Shown here: in pieces, positions 1,125-32,232 of the stretch | Layout of the letters: the number at the start of each line of letters is the position of its first letter | Position numbering within the stretch: position 1 is the first letter of the stretch | Assembly: GCF_010672085.1 (NCBI RefSeq) | Contig: NZ_JAAHHT010000051.1 | Span: forward strand, 934-33,165 | DNA from: Okeania sp. SIO3I5 | Lineage (GTDB): Bacteria > Cyanobacteriota > Cyanobacteriia > Cyanobacteriales > Microcoleaceae | DNA: 32,232 nucleotides | Direction: 5' to 3' | Program-made: the position numbers and the translations under genes | The notes under the pieces: model-generated | What the model saw: the letters and a program-made list of their open reading frames with translations, nothing else | Databases searched by the model: none | What the model was told of the DNA's origin: nothing

Positions 1125-4100
1125 ATGTCAATAAAAGTCAGTCTGAATCATCAACTTATTTACAATTTTGACCGCCCTATTATTCTCGGACCGCATCAGT
1201 TAGGATTGCGTCCTTCTCTTCATTGTCCTACTCCGATTCAAAGTTATTCATTAAAAGTTGAACCTCAAGAACATCAAATTACTTGGCAACAAGACGTTTA
1301 TGGTAATTTTATTAGCAAAATTAACTTTCTTCAGAAAACAGATAAACTAAAAATTGAAGTTGACATAATCGCTGAACTTAAACCCATAAATCCCTTTGAT
1401 TTTCTCCTGGAAGCTTATGCAGAGAAATATCCTTTTGTTTATGAAAATTCGCTAAAAAAACAACTAACTCCTTTTTTAGAAATCGCCGAATCAGGAGATT
1501 TACTACAGGAATGGATAAATAAAAATAGACAAATAGACACCTATACTACTAATTTTATCAATTCTATTAATCAACAACTTGCTCAAGATATTAACTATGA
1601 AATTAGACTAGAACCAGGTATTCAAACTTGCGAAGAAACTCTCCACAAAAAAATTGGTTCCTGTCGAGATACAGCTTGGTTATTCGTACAAATTTTGCGT
1701 CATTATGGTTTAGCAGCTCGGTTTGTTTCTGGATATTTAATTCAACTCAAAGAAGATATCCCACCCCTCGATAATTCCCCTACTCCAGAATTTGACAATG
1801 GAGACTTACACGCTTGGGCAGAAGTTTATTTGCCGGGAGCGGGTTGGATAGGTCTAGACCCCACCTCTGGTTTTTTGGCAGCAGAAGGTCATATTCCCCT
1901 GGTCTGTACTCCAGAACCTACAGCAGCAAATCCAGTACAAGGCACGACTGAACCCTGCGAGTCTAACTTAGAATTTTACGTCACGGTCTCTCGGTACGAA
2001 GAAAAACTAAGACCTACTAAACCTTACAGTGAAGAGGAATGGGAAAAAATTAACAACCTTGGTAGGGAAGTTGAGGCAAAACTAAGACGTCTTAGTTTAG
2101 GGTTAACGATGGGAGGAGAACCTACCTTTATTTCTATTGATAATTTTGAATCTCCACAATGGCGAGTGGAAGCTTTGGGAGATGAAAAACGCCGACTTGC
2201 GGGACAGTTGTTAAACCGTCTGGAAAAAAGATTTGCTAAGAATGGAGGATTATTACATTATGGTTTGGGTAAATGGTATCCGGGTGAAGCTTTGCCAAGG
2301 TGGGCACTAGGATGTTATTGGCGTCAAGATGGAGTTCCTATTTGGAGCGATCGCTCTCTCATGGCACAAGACAATAAAGATTATGGTCATGCTCGGAAGG
2401 AAGCAGAAATTTTTATCCAGAGTTTAGCGCAACATCTGGGCGTTAATTCAAGTTGCATCATTCCTGCTTATGAACAGGAAACTGAAACACCTGCGGGTTA
2501 TGTTTTGCCGATTTTGTCAGTCTTGAAAAATGAAAATTTGCACTGGAGTAGTTGTCATTGGCAATTACCCGAAAGTAAATTTCACTTGATCCCTGGGGAC
2601 TCACCCTTGGGGTTTCGTTTGCCACTTAGTTCCATTTCTTGGGCAGAAAATTTGGAACCTGAAGCAACCGTCGATATTAACCACCCCCCCACAACTCCAA
2701 GTCCTACATTCTTAGAAGCTCCTGAAAATTCTATTCGGGTAGCTTTAACCACAGAAGCGCGACTTGGAAAAATACATATATTTATCCCACCCATGACTTC
2801 TGCTAGAAGTTATTTAGATTTAATTGCGACGATTGAAAATACGGCAAAGCAACTAAAAATTCCCGTCATAGTTGAAGGTTACACACCTCCTGGGAATGAG
2901 GGAATAGATGGATTTCAAATTACTCCAGACCCAGGGGTAATAGAAGTAAATATTCATCCCGCAGAAAATTGGCATGAGTTGGTCGAGATTACTACAAGTT
3001 TATATGAAGAGGCGCGTTTGTGTCGGTTGGGAACTGAAAAATATCAGTTAGATGGTCGTCGGATAAGTACCGGTGGGGGAGCGCATATTACTATTGGCGG
3101 TAAGAATCTGTCGGAAAGTCCTCTATTAAGACGACCAGATTTATTGCGGAGTCTAATTACATATTGGCAACATCATCCTAGTTTGTCTTATTTATTTTCT
3201 GGTTTATTTGTCGGTCCGACGAGTCAAGCACCCCGAATAGATGAGGCGCGACATGAAAGTTTGTATGATTTGGAAATTGCTTTTCAGGAGTTACAACCGG
3301 GAAAAGAAGTTGCCCCCGAATTAATAGATCGTTTGTTGAGAAATTTATTGGTGGACGTCACGGGAAATACTCACCGCACCGAATTTTGTATTGATAAATT
3401 ATTTCCAGTGGAAAATCTACGCCGTCGGTTTGGGTTATTGGAGTTTCGAGGATTTGCAATGCCTCCCCACCCTAGAATGAGCTTATTACAAATGTTGTTA
3501 ATTCGGGCTTTGGTGGCGTGGTTTTGGGAACAACCTTATCAACGAGATTTGATTCGCTGGGGGACAATGCTCCACGATCGCTTTTTTCTGCCTCATTATA
3601 TAGGTGAGGATTTTCAAAAAGTAATTAGAGATTTGCAGTCGGCAGGTTTTGGATTTGAATTTGACTGGTTTGCGCCGTTTTTTGAATTTCGTTTTCCGAC
3701 AGTTGGGGAAATAATGCGGGATGGGTTGCAGTTGGAGTTACGTTATGCAATTGAACCTTGGCACGTTTTGGGAGAAGAAACAACTGGTGGAGGAACAGCG
3801 CGTTATGTGGATGATTCGATGGAAAGGTTGCAAGTAATCTTGCGAGGTGCGATGGGAGATTCGCCCAATCAGGATAGTGTAGGTTCGCGGTATTTAGTTT
3901 TGTGTAATGGTCGTCAGGTACCTTTGCACTCTACGGGTGTGACAGGTGAGTATGTAGGGGGGGTAAGGTATAGAGCGCGGAAATATGGGAGTTTATTACA
4001 TCCAGCGATCGAATCTCATAGTCCGTTGCTGTTTGAAATTGTGGATAGTGCAGTAGGGCGAAGTATTGGTGGGTGTAGTTATTATGTGAGTCCTCCCAAT

Positions 4101-4259
4101 GGGAAAGTTTATCGGCAGTTTCCGGTAAATCATCGGGAGGCAGAGTCACGGATGGTAGAGCGGTTTATAGGAATGGGGCATTCTTCTGGAGAGGTTGAGT
4201 TGTCCCCGCTGCGGTTAAGTTCGGAATATCCGTTGACTTTAGATTTGCGGAGGACTTAG
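1125..4259 (+). CDS. Transglutaminase-like cysteine-protease core fused to a large DUF2126-type C-terminal region (1044 aa)
   Basis: Complete ORF. The transglutaminase-core catalytic triad context is visible: 'GSCRDTAWLFVQILRHYGLAARFVSGY' (Cys), 'DLHAWAEVYLPGAGWIGLDPTSG' (His, Asp). The ~800-aa C-terminal extension is typical of DUF2126 transglutaminase-family proteins. Confidence 0.85.
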   Translation: MSIKVSLNHQLIYNFDRPIILGPHQLGLRPSLHCPTPIQSYSLKVEPQEHQITWQQDVYGNFISKINFLQKTDKLKIEVDIIAELKPINPFDFLLEAYAEKYPFVYENSLKKQLTPFLEIAESGDLLQEWINKNRQIDTYTTNFINSINQQLAQDINYEIRLEPGIQTCEETLHKKIGSCRDTAWLFVQILRHYGLAARFVSGYLIQLKEDIPPLDNSPTPEFDNGDLHAWAEVYLPGAGWIGLDPTSGFLAAEGHIPLVCTPEPTAANPVQGTTEPCESNLEFYVTVSRYEEKLRPTKPYSEEEWEKINNLGREVEAKLRRLSLGLTMGGEPTFISIDNFESPQWRVEALGDEKRRLAGQLLNRLEKRFAKNGGLLHYGLGKWYPGEALPRWALGCYWRQDGVPIWSDRSLMAQDNKDYGHARKEAEIFIQSLAQHLGVNSSCIIPAYEQETETPAGYVLPILSVLKNENLHWSSCHWQLPESKFHLIPGDSPLGFRLPLSSISWAENLEPEATVDINHPPTTPSPTFLEAPENSIRVALTTEARLGKIHIFIPPMTSARSYLDLIATIENTAKQLKIPVIVEGYTPPGNEGIDGFQITPDPGVIEVNIHPAENWHELVEITTSLYEEARLCRLGTEKYQLDGRRISTGGGAHITIGGKNLSESPLLRRPDLLRSLITYWQHHPSLSYLFSGLFVGPTSQAPRIDEARHESLYDLEIAFQELQPGKEVAPELIDRLLRNLLVDVTGNTHRTEFCIDKLFPVENLRRRFGLLEFRGFAMPPHPRMSLLQMLLIRALVAWFWEQPYQRDLIRWGTMLHDRFFLPHYIGEDFQKVIRDLQSAGFGFEFDWFAPFFEFRFPTVGEIMRDGLQLELRYAIEPWHVLGEETTGGGTARYVDDSMERLQVILRGAMGDSPNQDSVGSRYLVLCNGRQVPLHSTGVTGEYVGGVRYRARKYGSLLHPAIESHSPLLFEIVDSAVGRSIGGCSYYVSPPNGKVYRQFPVNHREAESRMVERFIGMGHSSGEVELSPLRLSSEYPLTLDLRRT

Positions 4260-4846
4260 AGGTATTATTTTTGATTACATGAGTATATATTATCGGTAAT
4301 ATATACACCACCAGACCAATCATGGTAACTAGGATATGGGTTGTAATCATTGTTTTGGAAATTTTTACATTATTCATAATTCATTGGTTGGTTTGTGTGA
4401 TTTTTAATTCAGATGGTGGTGATTATTCTCAGGACAAACGCATCTAAATTCTGTAAGCTCCTGCTGTTAAGCTTTAGAGAAGTAACGAGTATGAATACTC
4501 AGAAGTCTGACATTCTTCCCCTGTCAGAATTTCAAAATAAGATGCGTTTGCCCTGTGGTTATTCTTTTAATCACCCCACTTAGATTAAATATAAAATGTA
4601 CTATTGTCAAATATCAAGTATAAAATATTATATTATTTCAAGCTTGATATTTTTTGATTTTTATTAATAGCCATTTCCAGAAATTAATATTTTACAGGGG
4701 TTTTATGTGAATCATCAGATATATTTAATTAAAGCAATAATTATGTACTAAGTATTTAATAATACCTTTGCCTAAATGTTTATACTTGAAATGATTAATG
4801 GTATAGGTTCGCCAATATTTTGAAGAAGACAAATAATATAAAATCC

Positions 4847-5029
4847 GGTAGTCCTGCTGAGGAATGGCGAAGATACATAAGTTTTGTAATTTCTTCCCAC
4901 ACCTCCCACACCTCCCACACTTCCCACACCTCCCACACCTCCCACACCTCCCACACGAACCAACTTCCCACACCTCCCACACCTCCCACACCTCCCACAC
5001 TCTCTCTACCATTCCTCAGCACCACCACC
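4847..5029 (+). mobile_element. MITE copy A with imperfect ~21-bp terminal inverted repeats and an internal (TCCCACACC)n 9-mer tandem array, flanked by an 8-bp target-site duplication
   Basis: Terminal inverted repeats are 'GGTAGTCCTGCTGAGGAATGG' (left) and 'CCATTCCTCAGCACCACCACC' (right). 'taaaatcc' flanks the element directly at 4839-4846 and 5030-5037. About 11 TCCCACACC-type 9-mers lie inside. Confidence 0.7.
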
Positions 5030-5169
5030 TAAAATCCGGCTAATTAGTTATCGTATAGCACTTTTGCCGCTACGCGGAATTCAAAATTCAAAATTCATGC
5101 ATTATTGGTTAGTAAGGGTTTTAGGATTTTGTAACTGGTCAGTTATTTCTGCCATCCTGTACTAGGAAG

Positions 5170-5960
5170 ATGAGGTAAAATCCCTATTTTCGAGAGCTTC
5201 GGAAAATGAAAATATGGTAGTCCTGCTGAGGAATGGCGAAGATACATAAGTTTTGTAATTTCTTCCCACACGAACCAACTTCCCACACGAACCAACTTCC
5301 CACACCTCCCACACCTCCCACACCTCCCACACTCTCTCTACCATTCCTGAGCACCACCGCCGAAAATATTTCTCCTATTGCTCTTGGGAAAATTCCTGAA
5401 TATGGAAAAGTTTTTTTTGAACGGTTAATTGGGTTGAATAAAAAGTCATGCGTAGGGGCGAACAACCCCATCTAATCTTTAGAATATCACAAAAGTTGTG
5501 AGGAAGCAACGGGAAATCTTTTGACCCCCCGAAATTTTTGGGAGCTTCAGACAATGAAAATGTTCGTGATTTTTGATTGAGCAGGAAGGGAAAGATTTGA
5601 TGAGGGAACAATCTCTATTTCCGAGAGCTTCAGAAAATGAAAATATTTCTGCTATTGCTCTTGGGAAAATTCTTGGATATTGAAAAGGTTTTGTTGAGCG
5701 GTCAATTTGGTTGAATAAAAAGTCATGCGTAGGGGCGAACGAGCCCATCTAATCTTTAGAATATCACAAAAGTTGTGAGGAAGCAACGGGAAATCTTTTG
5801 ACCCCCCGAAATTTTTGGGAGCTTCAGACAATGAAAATGTTCGTGATTTTTTGATTGAGCAGGAAGGGAAAAATTTGATGAGGGAACAATCTCTATTTCC
5901 GGGAGCTTCAGAAAATGAAAATATTTCTGCTATTGCTCTTGGGAAAAAATTGCTTTCGCT
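5170..5960. repeat. Tandem array of ~276-290-bp units (family 1), about 2.7 copies, with the first copy interrupted by MITE copy B
   Basis: The unit landmark 'ttgaataaaaagtcatgcgtaggggcgaac' recurs at 5433 and 5709. 'gagcttcagaaaatgaaaatatttctgctattgctcttggg' recurs at 5626 and 5900, and a partial copy lies at 5180-5215/5370-5400. Each unit is itself built from two related half-units, both containing 'gagcttcagaMaatgaaaatRtt'. Confidence 0.75.
5216..5361 (+). mobile_element. MITE copy B (same family as 4847..5029), inserted into a unit of the ~280-bp tandem array with an 8-bp target-site duplication GAAAATAT
   Basis: The same terminal inverted repeats are present ('ggtagtcctgctgaggaatgg' ... 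'ccattcctgagcaccaccgcc'). 'gaaaatat' lies at 5208-5215 and 5362-5369. Removing the element and one copy of the duplication regenerates the sequence 'gaaaatgaaaatatttctSctattgctcttggg' seen in the intact paralogous unit at 5636-5670. Confidence 0.8.
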
Positions 5961-6044
5961 TTGTCGCTGCGGACGACTCTTAAACCGGATTCTATATTAA
6001 AATTAATTTTAATATTTTCAAATAGATATGAACAGGAAATAAAT

Positions 6045-7172
6045 ATGTTGAAATCGTTAACTATAAATAATTTTCGTTGCTTCCAATCTTTTGAACTTCA
6101 ACAACTTAGCAGAGTTAATTTATTAGTTGGAATGAATAATAGTGGGAAAACTTCAATTTTAGAAGCAATTCAACTTTTATATTCCTTTCATCAACCAGGC
6201 AAATTTCATAAAATGATATTAGATAGAGGAGAATATTTTACGGAAGGCGATCGCCAACTGGATATTCGTCACCTTTTCTATGGGCGTGAAATTTCATTAG
6301 GAAGCGAATTTTCTATAGTAGGAAATAATGGAAAAGAACAGGAAAAGTTCATTGCTTCAATACAAACAGAGTATCCTAATAATTCCGAGCAAGATATATC
6401 AGATAATTCAGAAGAATTTAGAGATGAGTTAGAATCATCAAAAAAACTTGTTTTTATACTTGATTGGCAGAATCAACCAGTAAAAATAAAACGAAATTTA
6501 TCAGATTATGGAGGTGTATATCTGGGAGACTCAAATTGGGCTATATTGGCGACAAAATTAAATACAAGAGTTGCTAAATCAATTGTAAAATCCCAATTTA
6601 TTGCACCATTGTCTCTGAATATTAGAGAAATTAGTAAACTATTTGATGAAATTGTATTAACACCAGAGGAAAATTTGACTCTAGAAGCACTGCAAATTAT
6701 TGAACCTAAAATTGAACGTATTGCTTCAATTGGTCCTGAAAAATACGATTCTAATAATGAAATTGTAGGAGCAAGAGGTGGATTTAGAGTAAAAGTTTCT
6801 GACCAAAAACAACCCATACCTATTGGCAGTATGGGAGAAGGAATATGGCGAATTTTAGCATTAGCGATCGCTCTGGTTTCTGCTCAAGGTGGAGTATTAC
6901 TTGTAGATGAAATTGATACTGGTTTACATTTTTCTACAATGTCTGATATGTGGAAACTTATTTGGAAAACAGCGAAAAAATTAGATGTTCAAGTATTTGC
7001 TACGACTCATAATAGTGATTGTTGGAGTAGTCTTGCGGATGTGATTAAAAGTGAAGGTTTAGAAAGTGAAGAAATTAAAATTCACAGAATAGAAGCTGAT
7101 AAAAATAGTTCTGTAGTTTTCACAGAACCAGAAATTGTTATTGCTGCAAAACGTGACATAGAGGTGCGATAG
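6045..7172 (+). CDS. AAA_21/AAA_15-type ABC ATPase (AbiLi/AriA/OLD-N-like), the ATPase component of a two-gene module
   Basis: The track ORF runs 5961..7172. I place the start at the in-frame ATG at 6045 (MLKSLTINNF...), which has AGGAAA 6 nt upstream. N-terminal 'LTINNFRCFQSFELQQLSRVNLLVGMNNSGKTSILEAI' is the Walker A region. C-terminal 'GGVLLVDEIDTGLHFSTMSDMWKLIW...VQVFATTHNSDC' carries the Walker B, D-loop and H-loop typical of AAA_21. Confidence 0.8.
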   Translation: MLKSLTINNFRCFQSFELQQLSRVNLLVGMNNSGKTSILEAIQLLYSFHQPGKFHKMILDRGEYFTEGDRQLDIRHLFYGREISLGSEFSIVGNNGKEQEKFIASIQTEYPNNSEQDISDNSEEFRDELESSKKLVFILDWQNQPVKIKRNLSDYGGVYLGDSNWAILATKLNTRVAKSIVKSQFIAPLSLNIREISKLFDEIVLTPEENLTLEALQIIEPKIERIASIGPEKYDSNNEIVGARGGFRVKVSDQKQPIPIGSMGEGIWRILALAIALVSAQGGVLLVDEIDTGLHFSTMSDMWKLIWKTAKKLDVQVFATTHNSDCWSSLADVIKSEGLESEEIKIHRIEADKNSSVVFTEPEIVIAAKRDIEVR

Positions 7173-7175
7173 TAA

Positions 7176-8121
7176 TGGCAAAAAAAGGAAGAAAATTACC
7201 TCCTAAAAATAAGCTCTTGGTAGAGGGTGCTGAGGATAAAAGAGTTATTCCATATTTGATAGAAGCGAATGGAGTTCCTTGGGGTGAAAATAAAGAAGAA
7301 GCTTCAACAATTAATAATTAATAATGAATAATGAATAATTAATAATTACCTCTCCTTGAAAAGAAGAGGATTGACTAATTATGAAAATTTTTATTTATTA
7401 TCCCCTGAAAAGGGGAGGCTTTAAACCAAAATTTTTCGGTAAGCATTCAGCACTCAGCTATCAGCTACATTACCTTTAGTTTACAAGTCAAGGTTATCAT
7501 TATTATGCTTAAATTCTTTGGTTAAAAATGGTAGAAGTTCAACTAAATTATGGCTTCATTCATTTAATGAACCAGAAAATACATGGCAAACTATTAGGAA
7601 TGTTTGTTTGCTTAAAAATTAAGGTTGAAAACCTTTGCTTTCAAGGAGAAAAAACAAAAAAATTATTTTTAACCAATCCTTTTATTAAAAAGAAAAGGTA
7701 ATTATTAATTATTAATTATTAATTGTTAATTATTAATTATTGAATAAGTATTCCTGATTTTCCTGAAAATTTACCAGAAACAGGTCTAATTCATAACACT
7801 AATTCTGGTGTTAAATTTGGAGTGTGGATGATGCCAGATAATAAAATGCGTGGGATGCTAGAAACATTTCTAACTTATATGATTCCTGACGAAAATGAAC
7901 CTATTTGGAATTATGCACAAACAGTTGTTATGGAAGCTAAAAATCAAGGTGCGCCATTTATAGAAAATCATAGTGATAAAGCTAATATTCATACATGGTT
8001 AGCTTGGCAAAATCCTCCTGGTCGTCAATTACATAATGCTGTGATGGAAAAAATATTAAATCCAAAACATCCCCAAGCTCAAATATTTATTAACTGGTTT
8101 AAAAAATTATATGACTTGTAA
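7176..8121 (+). pseudogene. Small partner gene of the ATPase, apparently split by a ~430-bp MITE cluster into an N-terminal fragment (7176..7322, 48 aa) and a C-terminal open frame (7744..8121)
   Basis: The ATG at 7176 lies 4 nt after the ATPase stop, indicating translational coupling. Fragment 1 reads 'MAKKGRKLPPKNKLLVEGAEDKRVIPYLIEANGVPWGENKEEAST*' and carries a TOPRIM/DUF4276-like 'LLVEGxxD' motif. The reading frame then ends in AT-heptamer repeats plus the ACCTCTCC-hairpin elements (7313-7743). A second open frame resumes at 7744 ('...ENLPETGLIHNTNSGVKFGVWMMPDNKMRGMLETFL...KLYDL') with no ATG until late; the annotated track start at 7822 is GTG. No frame-restoring junction was identified, and assignment to DUF4276/AbiLii versus DUF4435/AriB is by gene order only. 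Confidence 0.4.
7313..7743. mobile_element. Cluster of small ACCTCTCC-hairpin MITE-like elements plus AT-heptamer arrays
   Basis: The left end reads 'aattacctctccttgaaaagaagaggattgactaa' and a second hairpin 'cccctgaaaaggggaggctttaaacc' follows. The right end 'ttaaccaatccttttattaaaaagaaaaggtaattatta' is an inverted copy of the left end. Both sides are flanked by (AATTATT)n heptamers. The same termini recur at 19437-19560, 26590-26710, 26870-27060 and 28780-29040. Confidence 0.55.
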
Positions 8122-17976: not shown

Positions 17977-19287
17977 ATGTCTTCTTTAGATTCTCAAACT
18001 ATCAATTTTATTCAAAAAATACAACAGCAAATAGCGTCTCTATTGTTATATCAATCTGTTTTAAAAAAAACAGTAGGTGAAGCTTTTATTCAGCTATTAC
18101 AATCTTTGTCTAAAAATGATAGAACTGAAATAGAATACCTTCTAGCTTATGGCAACTGGTTTAGAACTATTGCTAGTCAAAATATTTCCTGGCAAGAATA
18201 TCTAATTTCTCAGATTCTTCAGGATGATAATCCTTTTAGTCAACAAGTTCAAAAAATAGATATTAATACCCTATCTCCAAATTTAATTGCAGCAGCAAAA
18301 CATGATTTACGAATCTTACAAAACCTTTATCAGCTAAGTGGTTACAAAATTAGTAGCTGGGTAGACACAATAGGTAAATTAAACTACACTCCCGTTGCTT
18401 GGGAATTAGAATCAGAAAGAAAAGAACCTATTTATGAACAGTTAAGAAATTTACAAAATTGGTCGGATGCTATTGAGATTTTAGCTACTCATTATCGTCA
18501 TTTTGGTACGGGTTTATTTGCTGAATCAATTGCTTTTGAATGGCGTAATGGTGAACTATTAACTATTACCTATCCCGATCCAGTTAAATTAAAAGAATTA
18601 GTAGGATATGAATTTCAACGAGATACTTTAATTAAAAATACAGAATTTCTCCTAGCAGGATATCCAGCACTTAATGTTTTACTTTATGGTAGTCGTGGTT
18701 CGGGGAAATCTTCCTTAGTAAAAGGTTTATTAAATGAGTATAGTCAACGCAATCTCCGTTTAGTTGAAGTAGCTAAATCAGATTTAAAAGATTTACCATT
18801 AATTATTGAAAAATTACGGAATGTTCCACAAAAATTTATTATCTTTGTTGATGACCTTTCCTTTGAAGAAGATGATGATACCTTTAAAGCTTTAAAAGTT
18901 GTTTTAGAAGGTAATTTAACTGCCAGACCAGCAAATGTGGTAGTCTATGCTACATCAAATAGAAGGCATTTAATAAGAGAATTCTTTAACGATCGCCCTC
19001 GCCCAAAAGATAGTGATGAAATTCATAATTGGGATACAGTTCAAGAAAAGCTTTCTTTTAGCGATCGCTTTGGTTTAACTTTAACTTTTGAACCTGCTAA
19101 CCAAGATACTTATTTAACAATTGTCAGACATCTGGCAAAGCAAGAAAAAATCAATCTAAATCCTAAAGATTTAGACTATCAAGCATTACAATGGGCAACT
19201 AGAAATAATGGTCGTTCTGGGCGAACGGCACGACAATTTATTGATTTTCTCAAAGCTAATGAACAATTAATAATGGATAATGGATAA
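17977..19287 (+). CDS. P-loop ATPase of the DUF815-like family (436 aa)
   Basis: Complete ORF. Walker A is 'LLYGSRGSGKSSLV' and Walker B is 'FIIFVDDLSFEEDDD'. 'VVVYATSNRRHLI' resembles the sensor region. The gene is flanked on both sides by AT heptamer arrays. Confidence 0.7.
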   Translation: MSSLDSQTINFIQKIQQQIASLLLYQSVLKKTVGEAFIQLLQSLSKNDRTEIEYLLAYGNWFRTIASQNISWQEYLISQILQDDNPFSQQVQKIDINTLSPNLIAAAKHDLRILQNLYQLSGYKISSWVDTIGKLNYTPVAWELESERKEPIYEQLRNLQNWSDAIEILATHYRHFGTGLFAESIAFEWRNGELLTITYPDPVKLKELVGYEFQRDTLIKNTEFLLAGYPALNVLLYGSRGSGKSSLVKGLLNEYSQRNLRLVEVAKSDLKDLPLIIEKLRNVPQKFIIFVDDLSFEEDDDTFKALKVVLEGNLTARPANVVVYATSNRRHLIREFFNDRPRPKDSDEIHNWDTVQEKLSFSDRFGLTLTFEPANQDTYLTIVRHLAKQEKINLNPKDLDYQALQWATRNNGRSGRTARQFIDFLKANEQLIMDNG

Positions 19288-19771: not shown

Positions 19772-20218
19772 ATGGGTCTTTTTGATCAAGGAACAGCAAC
19801 AATACAAGCTACTGATATTAAGTTAGAACCTGCTGAAGCTTTTGCAGCGATCGCTTTAATTGCTGTAGCTGCTGATGGTATTATTACTGATAGTGAAAAA
19901 CAAGGTTTTAGTAAGATTTTCTCTCGCATGGAACTGTTTAGTAATTATTCAGATGAAGGCAAGAGAGAAATGTTAGATCGTCTCTTAGGTATGATTAAGA
20001 ATAAGGAAATTAAGCCTTTGTTTGATGCTGCAGTTATTAAACTTCCTCAAGAGTTAAAGGAAACAGTTTTTGCTGTTAGTACAGACTTAGTTTTAGCAGA
20101 TAGAGACCTTGCTGAAGAGGAAGAACAACTTTTGAATGAATTGTATAATGCTTTGGAAATTTCTGAAGCAGTTGCTACTAAGATTATTGATGTAATAATG
20201 ATTAAAAATAAAGGTTAA
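19772..20218 (+). CDS. TerB-like (tellurite-resistance TerB family) protein, 148 aa
   Basis: Complete ORF with GAGGT upstream. Two TerB-type amphipathic halves are present: 'AFAAIALIAVAADGIITDSEKQ' and 'FAVSTDLVLADRDLAEEEEQLLNEL'. Confidence 0.6.
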   Translation: MGLFDQGTATIQATDIKLEPAEAFAAIALIAVAADGIITDSEKQGFSKIFSRMELFSNYSDEGKREMLDRLLGMIKNKEIKPLFDAAVIKLPQELKETVFAVSTDLVLADRDLAEEEEQLLNELYNALEISEAVATKIIDVIMIKNKG

Positions 20219-20899: not shown

Positions 20900-21316
20900 A
20901 TGTCTTTTTACTATAAAAGAATAGTTCATTTTCAAGATACTGATGCTGCGGGTGTGGTTTATTTTGCTAATGTTTTAGCAATTTGCCATGAAGCTTATGA
21001 GAAATCTTTAATAGAATTTGGTATTAATTTGAAGGTTTTTTTTACTAATCAAGAAGTTGCTATTCCAATTATTCATGCTGATGTTGATTTTCGTCGTCCG
21101 ATGTTTTGTGGCGATGAGTTAACTATTGAATTAATTCCTAAAAGTTGGGGAGATGATGAGTTTGAAATTTATTATCAAGTCTTTTTAAAAGAGATGGGAG
21201 AAAAGTGGGTGGCGAGAGCTAATACGAAGCACGTTTGTATCAATCCTCAAACTAGAAGTAGGCAGAAATTATCTGATGAAATTAGGGGATGGTTATTGAG
21301 TTTTGAAAGTTCGTAG
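20900..21316 (+). CDS. Hotdog-fold (4HBT-type) acyl-CoA thioesterase; resembles cyanobacterial 1,4-dihydroxy-2-naphthoyl-CoA hydrolase of phylloquinone synthesis
   Basis: N-terminal 'YKRIVHFQDTDAAGVVYFANVLAICHEAYEKSL' matches the 4HBT/DHNA-CoA thioesterase signature (the FxDTDxxGVV..AN motif with the catalytic Asp). Length 138 aa. Confidence 0.7.
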   Translation: MSFYYKRIVHFQDTDAAGVVYFANVLAICHEAYEKSLIEFGINLKVFFTNQEVAIPIIHADVDFRRPMFCGDELTIELIPKSWGDDEFEIYYQVFLKEMGEKWVARANTKHVCINPQTRSRQKLSDEIRGWLLSFESS

Positions 21317-21439: not shown

Positions 21440-22605
21440 TATATTTATTTTCCTTTCTACAATGTTTGCGCGATCGCCTAGGGATAATAAGAATTTTTGA
21501 GTTGAATAAAAAGTCATGCGTATGGGCGAGCTAACCCATATACCTTTTATGATATCACAAAAATTGTCAGGATGGAGCCGAAAATCCTTTGACGCGCTAA
21601 AATTTTTCAGGAGCTTCAGAAAATGACAATGTTATTGGTTTTCCACTCTACAATATTTGCTCGAATATTTGCGCGATCGCCAATAGGCAATAATCTTTTG
21701 AGTTGAATAAATAGTCATGCGTATAGGCAAGTTACCCCTGATAACTTTTATGATATCACAAAAATTGTGAGGATGGAACCGAAAATCCTTTGACCCGCTG
21801 AAATTTTTTAGGAGCTTCACAAAATGACAATGTTATTGATTTTCCACTGAGCAGCTATAGATGGAAAGATTCGACGATGGGAAAAACAAACATATTATAT
21901 TTATGGGAAGCTCTCACAAAATGAAGATATTTCTGGCATTGCTTTGCCAAAGAAAATTCCTAAATACTTGCATTGTCTATTACCAAAGAAATTTGGTTGA
22001 ATAAATAGTCATGCGTATAGGCAAGTTACCCCTGATAACTTTTATGATATCACAAAAATTGTGAGGATGGAACCGAAAATCCTTTGACCCGCTGAATTTT
22101 TTTAGGAGCTTCACAAAATGACAATGTTATTGGTTTTCCACTGAGCAGAGATAGATGGAAAGATTCGACGATGGGAAAAACAAACATATTATATTTATGG
22201 GAAGCTCTCACAAAATGAAGATATTTCTGGCATTGCTTTGTCAAAGAAAATTCCTAAATACTTGCATTGTCTATTACCAAAGAAATTTGGTTGAATAAAT
22301 AGTCATGCGTATAGGCAAGTTACCCCTGATAACTTTTATGATATCACAAAAATTGTCAGGATGGAGCCGAAAATCCTTTGACCCGCTGAATTTTTTTAGG
22401 AGCTTCACAAAATGACAATGTTATTGGTTTTCCACTGAGCAGAGATAGATGGAAAGATTCGACGATGGGAAAAACAAACATATTATATTTATGGGAAGCT
22501 CTCACAAAATGAAGATATTTCTGGTATTGCTTTGCCAAAGAAAATTCCTAAATACTTGCATTGTCTATTACCAAAGAAATTGGGAAACCAAAACAAGGGA
22601 AGACT
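21440..22605. repeat. Tandem array of ~292-bp units (family 2, related to the 5170-5960 array): one short ~206-bp variant followed by three full units
   Basis: 'ttgaataaaWagtcatgcgtatRggc' recurs at 21500, 21703, 21999 and 22291. Units are more than 95% identical to each other. They are homologous to family 1 throughout (for example 'atatcacaaaaRttgtSagga...aaatcYtttgacc...ggagcttcaSaaaatga'), but diverged at about 30%. Confidence 0.75.

Positions 22606-29062: not shown

Positions 29063-32232
<3,170 letters not shown>

What the first reader, a model, noticed from the sequence alone, without database searches (positions are those of the whole stretch)
5170..5960. Tandem array of ~280-bp dimeric units, possibly an array of small transcription units (family 1)
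There are about 2.7 head-to-tail copies, each made of two related ~140-bp halves sharing 'gagcttcagaMaatgaaaatRtt'. Each unit contains promoter-like hexamers (TTGAAT...; 'ctttagaatatcac' with a TAGAAT -10-like box) and short hairpins (GGGGcgaacaaCCCC; 'gaccccccgaaatttttggg'). Between copies the hairpin stem changes GGGG/CCCC to GGGC/GCCC, and family 2 has TATGGG/CCCATA at the homologous place, which hints at a conserved RNA stem. Cyanobacteria carry tandem sRNA arrays (e.g. the NsiR1 repeats of Nostoc), so these may be repeated sRNA genes and not inert satellites. The array sits directly upstream of the defence-like ATPase gene.
Basis: partly seen in the sequence, partly recalled or inferred. 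Interest (0 to 1): 0.5.

Follow-up and report, generated by a model that had tools for sequence, protein, structure and literature searches.

The report
Tandem array of promoter-bearing repeat units

Summary
The array is real. It spans about 5163-5947: two complete 277-278-bp units plus a leading partial unit that a 146-bp MITE has split. The units are not 140-bp dimers; the "halves" share only about 25-40 nt.

nhmmer found 451 copies in 117 stretches from Okeania, Trichodesmium erythraeum IMS101, Dapis and related MAGs, in arrays of 1-12 units at many unrelated loci. None were found in viral contigs, and Rfam has no match.

A ~135-bp core is conserved in blocks. One block is a near-invariant 22-mer, GTTGAATAAAAAGTCATGCGTA.

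On the bottom strand the other blocks read TTGCAT-N17-(TGn)TAnnAT, a sigma-70 -35 plus extended -10. This is present in 70% of cores, against 1% on the top strand and 5.6% in shuffles. The -10 is symmetric, so weaker top-strand initiation is possible. In other genomes obg, pheS, thiG and moeA start 18-102 nt beyond the 22-mer in the bottom-strand direction.

Small ORFs are not conserved. There is no specific link to the adjacent AbiL-like (PADLOC PDC-M38) ATPase.

Best reading: dispersed, tandemly amplified promoter/leader modules. Transcription itself is untested.

The parts
5163..5215 (+). Leading partial unit, left piece (second-half segment ending in the 23-mer GAGCTTCGGAAAATGAAAATAT). It is cut by the MITE insertion. 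5208-5215 is the left copy of the 8-bp target duplication.
   Evidence: (D4)
5216..5361 (.). MITE-like insertion that interrupts the array and is not part of the repeat family. It has imperfect terminal inverted repeats (GGTAGTCCTGCTGAGGAATGG / CCATTCCTGAGCACCACC), internal TCCCACACC 9-mers, and 8-bp target duplications GAAAATAT at 5208-5215 and 5362-5369.
   Evidence: (D3, D6, I1, I2)
5362..5432 (+). Leading partial unit, right piece (continuation of the second-half segment plus the spacer up to the first core).
   Evidence: (D2)
5433..5709 (+). Unit 1 (277 bp): a ~135-bp conserved core (5433-5557) followed by the more variable second part.
5433..5454 (-). Near-invariant 22-mer GTTGAATAAAAAGTCATGCGTA of unit 1. 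On the bottom strand it reads UACGCAUGACUUUUUAUUCAAC and is the proposed conserved leader of the bottom-strand transcript.
5455..5469 (.). GGCGA is conserved as sequence, but pairing is not supported by covariation.
5480..5486 (.). Symmetric -10 module TAGAATA. The top-strand hexamer is TAGAAT (5480-5485). The bottom-strand hexamer is TATTCT (5481-5486), preceded by TG (complement of 5488-5489).
5504..5509 (-). Bottom-strand -35-like hexamer TTGCTT (family consensus TTGCAT), 17 nt from the -10. The predicted bottom-strand start is about 5473-5476.
5542..5564 (+). First 23-mer of unit 1 (GAGCTTCAGACAATGAAAATGTT), which forms the end of the conserved core.
5625..5647 (+). Second 23-mer of unit 1 (in the second part of the unit).
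5710..5947 (+). Unit 2, truncated after ...CTCTTGGGAAAA. It holds the 22-mer (5710-5731), the -10 module (5757-5763), the bottom-strand -35 TTGCTT (5781-5786) and 23-mers at 5819-5841 and 5903-5925. The predicted bottom-strand start is about 5750-5753.
21501..22581 (+). Family 2 array of the same superfamily: one short copy (21501-21649) and three 294-bp units. The 22-mers are at 21501, 21702, 21996 and 22290. The bottom-strand promoter reads TTCCAT or CTCCAT -N17- TATCAT with TG.

Best explanation
The array is a local tandem amplification of a lineage-specific, dispersed non-coding module of Microcoleaceae cyanobacteria (Okeania, Trichodesmium, Dapis and relatives).

Each unit has a ~135-bp core that works as a self-contained promoter plus fixed leader. 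A symmetric -10 element is backed on the bottom strand by TGn and a TTGCAT-type -35 at 17 bp. This should recruit the housekeeping RNA polymerase mainly in the bottom-strand direction. Transcription would start about 7 nt past the -10 and run first through the GGGG..CCCC/UUCGCC segment and then the near-invariant 22 nt UACGCAUGACUUUUUAUUCAAC.

Where a gene follows in that direction (obg, pheS, thiG, moeA in other genomes), the module is placed to serve as its promoter and 5' leader. Where none follows, as in this window, it would yield non-coding or antisense transcripts that run away from the ATPase gene, towards the 3' end of the upstream gene. Because the -10 is symmetric, weaker top-strand initiation towards the T-run (a 42-52-nt product) is possible.

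Copy number changes, and copies are homogenised, by unequal recombination within arrays.

Shown: the repeat, the family, the block conservation, the promoter-like architecture and its strand bias, the lack of coding and of conserved folding, and the gene adjacency.
Inferred: that the promoter fires, the start sites, and any role of the 22-mer.
For: - Family size: 451 copies in 117 stretches, in arrays of 1-12 units with spacing modes of 180-200 and 240-330 bp. At least 46-70 copies per Okeania genome or related MAG.
- Block conservation: the 22-mer, GGCGA, [T/A]ATnnTATCA, ATGCAA, a T-run and GAGCTTCAnAnAATGA are conserved, with freely varying positions between them.
- Bottom-strand reading: T.86 T.92 G.79 C.87 A.86 T.80, then N17, with T.94 G.99 at -15/-14, and the hexamer T.96 A1.0 n n A.77 T.98.
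- Motif count: TTGnnn-N16-18-TAnnnT occurs in 246/352 cores on the bottom strand (235 with N17, 204 with TGn), 4/352 on the top strand and 5.6% of shuffles.
- Geometry: -11A and -7T are reciprocally paired and the predicted starts lie 18 bp apart, as described for bacterial bidirectional promoters (PMC10268837).
- Independent call: the generic scan finds TTGCAA-16/17-TACAAT in 2 of 7 units of L060, pointing at obg.
- Gene adjacency: ORF starts lie 18-106 nt beyond the 22-mer in the bottom-strand direction in 15 of 38 co-directional cases. Those with recognisable products start 18-102 nt beyond it. They include obg (two genomes), pheS (two), thiG (three), moeA (two), folC and a trmJ-like gene. 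That leaves little or no room for another promoter.
- Age and homogenisation: orthologous arrays in L179 and L010 keep the same right boundary but have 3 cores rather than 2. Paralogous units are 95-98% alike, against about 87% for orthologous ones.
Against: - No expression data could be reached. The one primary transcriptome of a carrier (T. erythraeum IMS101) has no supplement held, and it excluded RNAs under 300 nt.
- The generic promoter scan calls nothing in the two window arrays above shuffle level.
- The window's own -35 hexamers are weak (TTGCTT; TTCCAT/CTCCAT).
- No terminator or defined 3' end was found for a bottom-strand RNA.
- Arrays lie preferentially at gene 3' ends (convergent 26, divergent 7). 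That fits tolerated selfish DNA as well as it fits promoter modules.
- ORF starts are 'first start codon' estimates, and many loci are orthologues of one another, so the counts are not independent.
Confidence: 0.45

Rival explanations
1. Each unit is a top-strand small-RNA gene: the TAnnnT box fires rightwards, and a 42-52-nt RNA carrying short hairpins ends at the T-run, as in NsiR1 arrays.
For: - The -10 is symmetric, so [T/A]ATnnT also reads on the top strand (T.50 A.98 T.77 n n T1.0).
- A T-run of 5-9 lies 42-52 nt downstream in nearly all cores.
- About a quarter of cores, mainly one subfamily (GCAAGG..CCTTGC + T-run), have a canonical terminator hairpin there.
- In L087 a solitary core lies upstream of a 2-repeat CRISPR-like array in this orientation.
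- In the window, L010 and L179 the ATPase follows in this orientation.
Against: - The top strand has no -35 or TGn support (4/352 against 246/352), and T-12 is lost in a whole subfamily.
- Hairpins before the T-run average -3.4 kcal/mol against -1.9 in shuffles, and the window copies have none.
- There is no conserved structure and no covariation.
- This model leaves the most conserved element (the 22-mer) and the block after the T-run outside the RNA.
- There is no Rfam NsiR1 match.
Confidence: 0.15
2. Selfish or neutral satellite-like DNA. A repeat that spreads and amplifies by recombination or an unknown mobilisation route. Its promoter-like blocks would be incidental or serve only its own propagation, with no host function.
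For: - High copy number and dispersal to many unrelated loci.
- Preference for convergent intergenic regions and avoidance of divergent ones (26 against 7).
- Variable copy number between orthologous loci.
- Concerted evolution.
- The IMS101 array is flanked by a ~200-bp duplication of its target region.
- No conserved fold and no ORF.
Against: - Mosaic conservation is the signature of selection on specific positions, not of recent amplification: near-invariant positions sit next to freely varying ones across genera and more than 350 copies.
- Solitary copies show no terminal inverted repeats and no target duplications.
- Housekeeping genes start 18-47 nt beyond the element, so those genes presumably depend on it.
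Confidence: 0.25
3. A DNA-level array of protein-binding sites. The 22-mer and the GAGCTTCA..AATGA block would be bound by a lineage-specific DNA-binding protein (nucleoid organisation, recombination or regulation), and RNA output would be secondary.
For: - The most conserved elements are sequence motifs, not helices.
- They sit at fixed spacing in regular arrays.
- The 23-mer motif occurs twice per unit.
Against: - No candidate binding protein is linked to the arrays.
- The 22-mer has no dyad symmetry.
- This model does not account for the promoter-shaped blocks and their strand bias.
Confidence: 0.08
4. A cis-acting RNA partner of the adjacent defence-like gene pair (PDC-M38/AbiL-like ATPase plus DUF3226), for example a repeat-RNA antitoxin as in type III toxin-antitoxin systems.
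For: The array ends 98 bp upstream of the ATPase ATG. This arrangement is kept in two related genomes.
Against: - Only 4 of 199 flanking ORFs belong to this ATPase family.
- The second array in the same window lies between a thioesterase gene and ruvB.
- Units are 278 bp, not about 36 nt.
- The better promoter points away from the ATPase.
Confidence: 0.03
5. An array of small-peptide genes: a GGAG-like ribosome site plus ATG after each 23-mer on the top strand, or the ATG inside the 22-mer on the bottom strand.
For: GGAGCTTCAnAnAATG looks like a Shine-Dalgarno site plus start codon. In a few copies 8-codon (MKMFVIFD, MTMLLVFH, MKTLMTFH) and 25-27-codon ORFs follow.
Against: - Across 572 sites the ORF length ranges from 1 to over 60 codons, stops are not conserved and 456 different peptides result.
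- Bottom-strand ORFs from the 22-mer ATG are equally erratic, at 3-86 codons.
Confidence: 0.02

Closest known systems
Putative mobile promoters (Matus-Garcia et al. 2012, PMC3488235)
   Same: Highly similar 50-100-nt sequences found upstream of non-homologous genes within a genome. T. erythraeum IMS101 is among the genomes richest in such families (22 families). Here the same core precedes obg, pheS, thiG, moeA and folC.
   Different: Most copies here stand in tandem arrays at gene 3' ends rather than singly upstream of genes. The unit is longer and has a conserved second part. I could not check whether this family is one of the 22 listed for IMS101.
Actuatons (sRNA gene inserted upstream of a gene that lacks its own start site; Kopf and Hess 2015, PMC6596454)
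   Same: A repeated promoter plus short conserved leader, followed in some loci by a co-directional gene with no room for a promoter of its own.
   Different: An actuaton is defined from transcript data (a discrete abundant sRNA plus read-through), and none is available here. In this window no gene follows in the main promoter direction.
NsiR1 tandem sRNA array of heterocystous cyanobacteria (Ionescu et al. 2010, cited in PMC6596454)
   Same: Head-to-tail repeats in a cyanobacterial intergenic region in which each repeat has its own promoter.
   Different: There is no sequence or model similarity. NsiR1 occupies one locus upstream of hetF, whereas this family occupies dozens of loci. The lineage here is different, and there is no supported terminator or fold.
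The >6-kb, 7-unit tandem array that gives the most abundant ncRNA of T. erythraeum IMS101 (Pfreundt et al. 2014, PMC4143802)
   Same: Same lineage. A tandem repeat array in non-coding DNA with one start site per repeat, and flanks that carry partial duplications of the neighbouring gene, as at the IMS101 copy of this family.
   Different: Those units are 736-973 bp at a single locus and were reported to have no similarity elsewhere. The present units are 180-330 bp and dispersed.
Bacterial bidirectional promoters with symmetric -10 elements (Warman et al. 2021, as summarised in PMC10268837)
   Same: -11A and -7T of the two strands are reciprocally paired, so the predicted divergent starts lie 18 bp apart.
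   Different: Here one direction also has TGn and a -35 and the other has neither, so the output is predicted to be asymmetric. No start sites have been mapped.

Membership tests
NsiR1 (Rfam family) | Match to the Rfam covariance model | tested here: not met
   No Rfam family reaches its gathering score in the window. No NsiR1 match at E up to 10 in 5100-6050.
NsiR1 (Rfam family) | A single array upstream of hetF in heterocyst-forming cyanobacteria | tested here: not met
   Carriers are Okeania, Trichodesmium and Dapis. Arrays lie at many loci next to unrelated genes.
Actuaton | A co-directional protein gene directly downstream that lacks a start site of its own | tested here: inconclusive
   By position this is met for obg, pheS, thiG and moeA in other genomes. 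It is not met in this window for the bottom-strand direction. Start sites cannot be tested.
Actuaton | A discrete abundant sRNA plus read-through transcript | not testable with these tools
   No transcript data are held.
Putative mobile promoter | [quoted passage not shown] | tested here: met
   The same core lies 18-106 nt upstream of unrelated genes. The 22-mer is exact in every stretch the scan returned; the core-wide identity between those particular copies was not measured.
Sigma-70 type promoter (bottom strand) | A -35 TTGnnn, a 16-18-nt spacer and a -10 TAnnnT, optionally with TGn | tested here: met
   246/352 cores against 5.6% of shuffles. Window units read TTGCTT-N17(TGA)-TATTCT. The stricter generic scan does not call the window units.
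Bidirectional promoter (symmetric -10) | -11A and -7T reciprocally paired; divergent start sites 18 bp apart | tested here: inconclusive
   The sequence geometry is met. Start sites are not testable.
Structured small RNA | Conserved secondary structure with compensatory changes | tested here: not met
   RNAalifold gives 0 pairs on 80 copies. Five named stems do no better than shuffles. Single-sequence z-scores range from +0.7 to -1.7.
MITE | Terminal inverted repeats and target-site duplications at the ends of single copies | tested here: not met
   None was seen on reading the ends of 16 solitary copies. By contrast the inserted element at 5216-5361 has both.
CRISPR array | Repeats of 25-40 nt separated by unique spacers of similar length | tested here: not met
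   Units are 180-330 bp and homologous over their whole length.
Type III toxin-antitoxin RNA repeats (ToxI-like) | Short tandem repeats directly upstream of, and consistently linked to, the toxin gene | tested here: not met
   Only 4 of 199 flanking ORFs are this ATPase. Neighbours are diverse.
Integron attC / cassette array | GTTRRRY core site paired with an inverse core site across an imperfect palindrome, with variable cassette sequence 3' of the core site | tested here: not met
   GTTGAAT fits GTTRRRY. However, the 130 bp 3' of it are the conserved part and the 5' side is variable. No inverse core site was seen on reading the units.

The most novel reading that the evidence does not exclude
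The near-invariant 22 nt (UACGCAUGACUUUUUAUUCAAC), with the adjacent UUCGCC segment, is a shared 5' leader 'tag' placed on dozens of dispersed transcripts, including those of housekeeping genes such as obg, pheS and thiG. One trans-acting factor (an RNA-binding protein, a nuclease or a complementary RNA) would control all of them through this tag. The tandem arrays at gene 3' ends would act as high-output decoys that titrate that factor. This would be a lineage-wide post-transcriptional regulon built from a mobile promoter-leader cassette.
Probability: 0.12. Interest if true: 0.7.

Novelty: new member of a known kind. Interest (0 to 1): 0.4.

Why it matters
Trichodesmium and its relatives carry an unusually large non-coding genome fraction (about 40% in IMS101; PMC4143802), and its content is only partly explained. 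This family accounts for hundreds of conserved intergenic units per lineage. It gives them a concrete, testable anatomy: predicted start sites at single-nucleotide resolution on a named strand, and a 22-nt probe sequence.

If the modules fire as predicted, they are a natural example of promoter-leader cassettes that spread, amplify in tandem and become the promoters of essential genes. For genome annotation, the result warns against calling these units structured sRNAs or small-peptide genes, and against tying them to the neighbouring defence-like genes.

Tried and rejected
- **Coding, top strand:** ORFs after the conserved GGAG..ATG are erratic in length and sequence.
- **Coding, bottom strand:** ORFs from the ATG inside the 22-mer are also erratic. 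The 89-95-aa bottom-strand ORFs are read-through of repeat units.
- **Conserved RNA fold:**
  - Single-sequence folds are not better than shuffles.
  - RNAalifold in Python on 181 representatives gives about -9 kcal/mol on either strand.
  - The tool run on 80 sequences gives 0 pairs.
- **Long-range pairing of the 22-mer with a downstream CGTGATTTTT-type segment:** the downstream arm is poorly conserved in the family.
- **Top-strand terminator:** present in only about 26% of cores. The generic scans find none.
- **Link to a neighbouring gene family:** none was found by clustering 199 flanking ORFs.
- **Phage origin:** the 18-nt head of the 22-mer (GTTGAATAAAWAGTCATG) is absent from IMG/VR contigs.
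- **Literature:**
  - No paper holds a 17-nt piece of the 22-mer.
  - Nothing relevant came from the Trichodesmium/Okeania repeat searches.
  - Nothing relevant in the 202-genome cyanobacterial RNA-structure screen.
- **Expression data:** the supplement of PMC4143802 is not held.
- **Source genome:** two exact-protein look-ups found nothing. The nearest relatives are MAG P01_H01_bin.35 (L010) and metagenome contig JAAUYL010107996.1 (L179), at 87-93% identity.
- **MITE status of the unit, integron attC and CRISPR readings:** rejected on anatomy.
Full report
**1. The observation**

The region holds a genuine tandem repeat.
- The repeat finder reports two 213-nt copies at 95% identity (5362-5574 and 5639-5851, spacing 277). 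It also reports two 100-nt copies at 98% (5570-5669 and 5848-5947, spacing 278).
- TRF did not list this array. It did list the sister array at 21697-22581 (294 bp x 3.0, 98%).

- 5216-5361 is a 146-bp MITE-like insertion with imperfect terminal inverted repeats, internal TCCCACACC 9-mers and a perfect 8-bp target duplication (GAAAATAT).
- A 183-bp sister copy at 4847-5029 is flanked by TAAAATCC.
- Two orthologous loci lack the insertion.
- Without it the array is about 2.3 units: two complete cores (5433 and 5710) and a leading partial unit.

The unit is not a dimer of 140-bp halves. The two 23-mers are 83-84 and 194 bp apart, and only about 42 nt around them are alike.

**2. A large family**

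All were from Okeania spp., Trichodesmium (including T. erythraeum IMS101), Dapis spp. and related Microcoleaceae or cyanobacterial MAGs. A metagenome scan added 65 stretches. IMG/VR had none.
- nhmmer seeded with a window unit found 451 copies in 117 sequences.
- These form 128 arrays of 1-12 units, with spacing modes at 180-200 and 240-330 bp.
- That is at least 46-70 copies per Okeania genome or related MAG.

IMS101 has a five-unit, 273-291-bp array at NC_008312.1:38379-39760 with the same two-part layout.

L179 and L010 are syntenic with window 1205-12556 at 87-93% identity. They carry the same array upstream of the same ATPase gene, with an identical right boundary but three cores. Paralogous units in the window are 95-98% alike and orthologous ones about 87%. 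The arrays are therefore old and evolve in concert.

**3. Anatomy**

Only about 135 bp are found in nearly all copies. Solitary copies start at about TTTTTA|GTTGAAT and end right after AATGAAA. Conservation comes in blocks separated by freely varying positions:
- the near-invariant 22-mer
- GGCGA
- [T/A]ATnnTATCA
- ATGCAA
- a T-run
- GAGCTTCAnAnAATGA

The second part of the unit is less conserved but recognisably shared between the window and IMS101.

**4. What it is not**

*Not coding.* ORFs after the SD-like GGAG..ATG range from 1 to over 60 codons and give 456 different peptides. ORFs from the ATG inside the 22-mer on the other strand are equally erratic.

*Not a structured RNA, on present evidence.*
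- Single-sequence folds have z-scores between +0.7 and -1.7.
- RNAalifold gives about -9 kcal/mol on either strand for 181 representatives. It predicts no pair at all on the 80-sequence alignment A1.
Stems are broken in 25-40% of sequences.
- In 357 copies, G-to-A and G-to-T changes in the GGGG arm stay uncompensated 56 and 40 times.

*Not in Rfam*.

*Not tied to the ATPase.* That gene and the DUF3226 fragment behind it match PADLOC PDC-M38A/B and AbiLi. However, only 4 of 199 flanking ORFs belong to that family. Other arrays adjoin dnaB, uvrA, sod, kinases and many others.

**5. The promoter reading**

On the top strand the box upstream of ATCAC is [T.50][A.98][T.77]nn[T1.0]. It has no TGn and no -35.

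Read on the bottom strand, the same positions and their neighbours give the following:
- -35: T.86 T.92 G.79 C.87 A.86 T.80
- a 17-nt spacer ending in T.94 G.99 n
- -10: T.96 A1.0 n n A.77 T.98

This is TTGCAT-N17-TGnTAnnAT. It also accounts for the otherwise unexplained ATGCAA and ATCA blocks.

TTGnnn-N16-18-TAnnnT is present on the bottom strand of 246 of 352 cores (235 with N17, 204 with TGn). It is present on the top strand of 4, and in 5.6% of shuffled controls.

The -10 is symmetric. -11A and -7T of the two strands pair with each other, which puts the two predicted starts 18 bp apart. This is the geometry described for bacterial bidirectional promoters. Top-strand initiation is therefore possible but unsupported by other elements.

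The stricter generic scan does not call the window units. It does call TTGCAA-16/17-TACAAT in two of seven units in L060.

The window units read TTGCTT-N17(..TGA)-TATTCT:
- unit 1: -35 at 5504-5509, -10 at 5481-5486
- unit 2: -35 at 5781-5786, -10 at 5758-5763

Family 2 reads TTCCAT or CTCCAT-N17-TATCAT.

**6. Positional support**

Among arrays whose neighbour on the 22-mer side is co-directional with the bottom-strand promoter, 15 of 38 ORF starts lie within 106 nt of the array edge. On the other side the figure is 6 of 32.

The close neighbours include housekeeping genes:
- obg in two genomes (the ATG is 27 nt from the 22-mer in L060)
- pheS in two genomes (about 47 nt in L087)
- thiG in three genomes
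- moeA in two genomes
- folC
- a trmJ-like gene

There is no room for another promoter at obg or pheS. Transcription through the 22-mer from within the module is the simplest way these genes can be expressed.

Overall, though, arrays favour gene 3' ends: convergent 26, divergent 7, tandem 16 and 22. Most copies are therefore not gene promoters.

**7. Consequence for this window**

The stronger promoter direction points leftwards, away from the ATPase. It leads through the 22-mers and the MITEs toward the 3' end of the DUF2126/transglutaminase gene (1125-4259, + strand). Family 2 likewise points at the 3' end of the thioesterase gene (20900-21316). If active, both arrays would give non-coding or antisense transcripts. 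The ATPase could at most receive the weaker top-strand output, or it may use the AT-rich 98 bp in front of it.

**8. Limits**

- Nothing here shows transcription. The IMS101 primary transcriptome paper holds no supplement in the library, and by its own account it missed RNAs under 300 nt.
- No 3' end or terminator was found for a bottom-strand RNA. A terminator-like hairpin before the top-strand T-run exists in only about a quarter of cores.
- Flank statistics rest on crude ORF calls and include orthologous loci.
- The role of the 22-mer, which is the most conserved element, is unknown.

**9. Comparison and novelty**

The closest concepts are:
- putative mobile promoters, for which IMS101 is one of the richest genomes
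- actuatons and the NsiR1 tandem array
- the 7-unit ncRNA array of IMS101
- symmetric bidirectional promoters

The family itself has no Rfam model, and I found no description of it. I rate it a new member of a known kind, of moderate interest. It is a concrete, testable piece of the large non-coding fraction of Trichodesmium-type genomes, but not a new principle.

Noticed in passing
window 4847-5029 and 5216-5361: Two copies of a MITE-like element (183 and 146 bp). Both have imperfect terminal inverted repeats (GGTAGTCCTGCTGAGGAATGG / CCATTCCTCAGCACCACC), a variable internal run of TCCCACACC 9-mers with ACGAACCAACT interruptions, and perfect 8-bp target duplications (TAAAATCC and GAAAATAT). 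The second copy sits inside the repeat array and is absent from the orthologous arrays in L179 and L010, so it is a recent insertion.
   Followed up: partly
window 13657-16437 (+): A 926-aa ORF matches the eukaryotic major vault protein over its repeat and shoulder domains (Vault 6.6e-67, MVP_shoulder 9.8e-54). It is followed by a DUF815 AAA ATPase (17977-19287) and a TerB-domain protein (19772-20218). A vault-protein homologue in a cyanobacterium is unusual.
   Followed up: no
window 6045-8121: The ATPase matches PADLOC PDC-M38A end to end (9e-91) and AbiLi. Its expected partner (DUF3226 / PDC-M38B) is present only as a 99-aa ORF covering the C-terminal half of the profile. Heptamer repeat runs (7309-7348, 7699-7741) lie in the gap before it, so the partner gene may be disrupted.
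   Followed up: no
window 31263-32232: A third, unrelated tandem array runs off the window end. TRF gives a 69-bp period (12.9 copies, 72%) nested in 231- and 300-bp periods at 78-90%. It is purine-rich on the + strand (GC skew +0.42). Not examined further.
   Followed up: no
L043 6040-6260 and 7760-7990 (NC_008312.1 about 38040-38260 and 39760-39990): The five-unit array of T. erythraeum IMS101 is flanked on both sides by about 200 bp of near-identical sequence: the 3' end of the upstream gene plus the start of the downstream TPR-like gene. The target region was therefore duplicated when the array arose or moved. The published 6-kb IMS101 array shows a similar partial gene duplication.
   Followed up: partly
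L087 2228-2340: About 190 bp from a solitary core lies a two-repeat CRISPR-like mini-array (GTTTCAATCCCTAAGTAGGAATTTGGTTTGGGAAAG x2 with one 36-nt spacer). It sits in the divergent region between pheS and surE.
   Followed up: no
L044 3600-5700; L095 and L020: An IscB-like (RRXRR/HNH) gene lies between two solitary cores in L044. TnpB-like genes start 101-155 nt beyond the 22-mer in L095 and L020. These may be insertions of IS200/IS605-type elements into or next to arrays.
   Followed up: no
window 5040-5100 and 5948-5990; L179 and L010 equivalents: Short GC-richer motifs of the type GCCGCTACGCGGAA and TTCGCTTTGTCGCTGCGGACGACTCTTAAA recur at the array borders. Similar ones lie next to the IMS101 array (TTCGCGTTTCGCTGCGCGAC) and after family 2 (GGTTTCGACGACTCTCATA). 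This may be a separate small repeat family that marks array ends.
   Followed up: no
whole window: There are dozens of short tandem heptamer runs (AATTAAT, ACTGATA, TTATCAA, ATAATGG, TCAGGAG and others), typical of filamentous cyanobacteria. Overall GC is about 33%.
   Followed up: no
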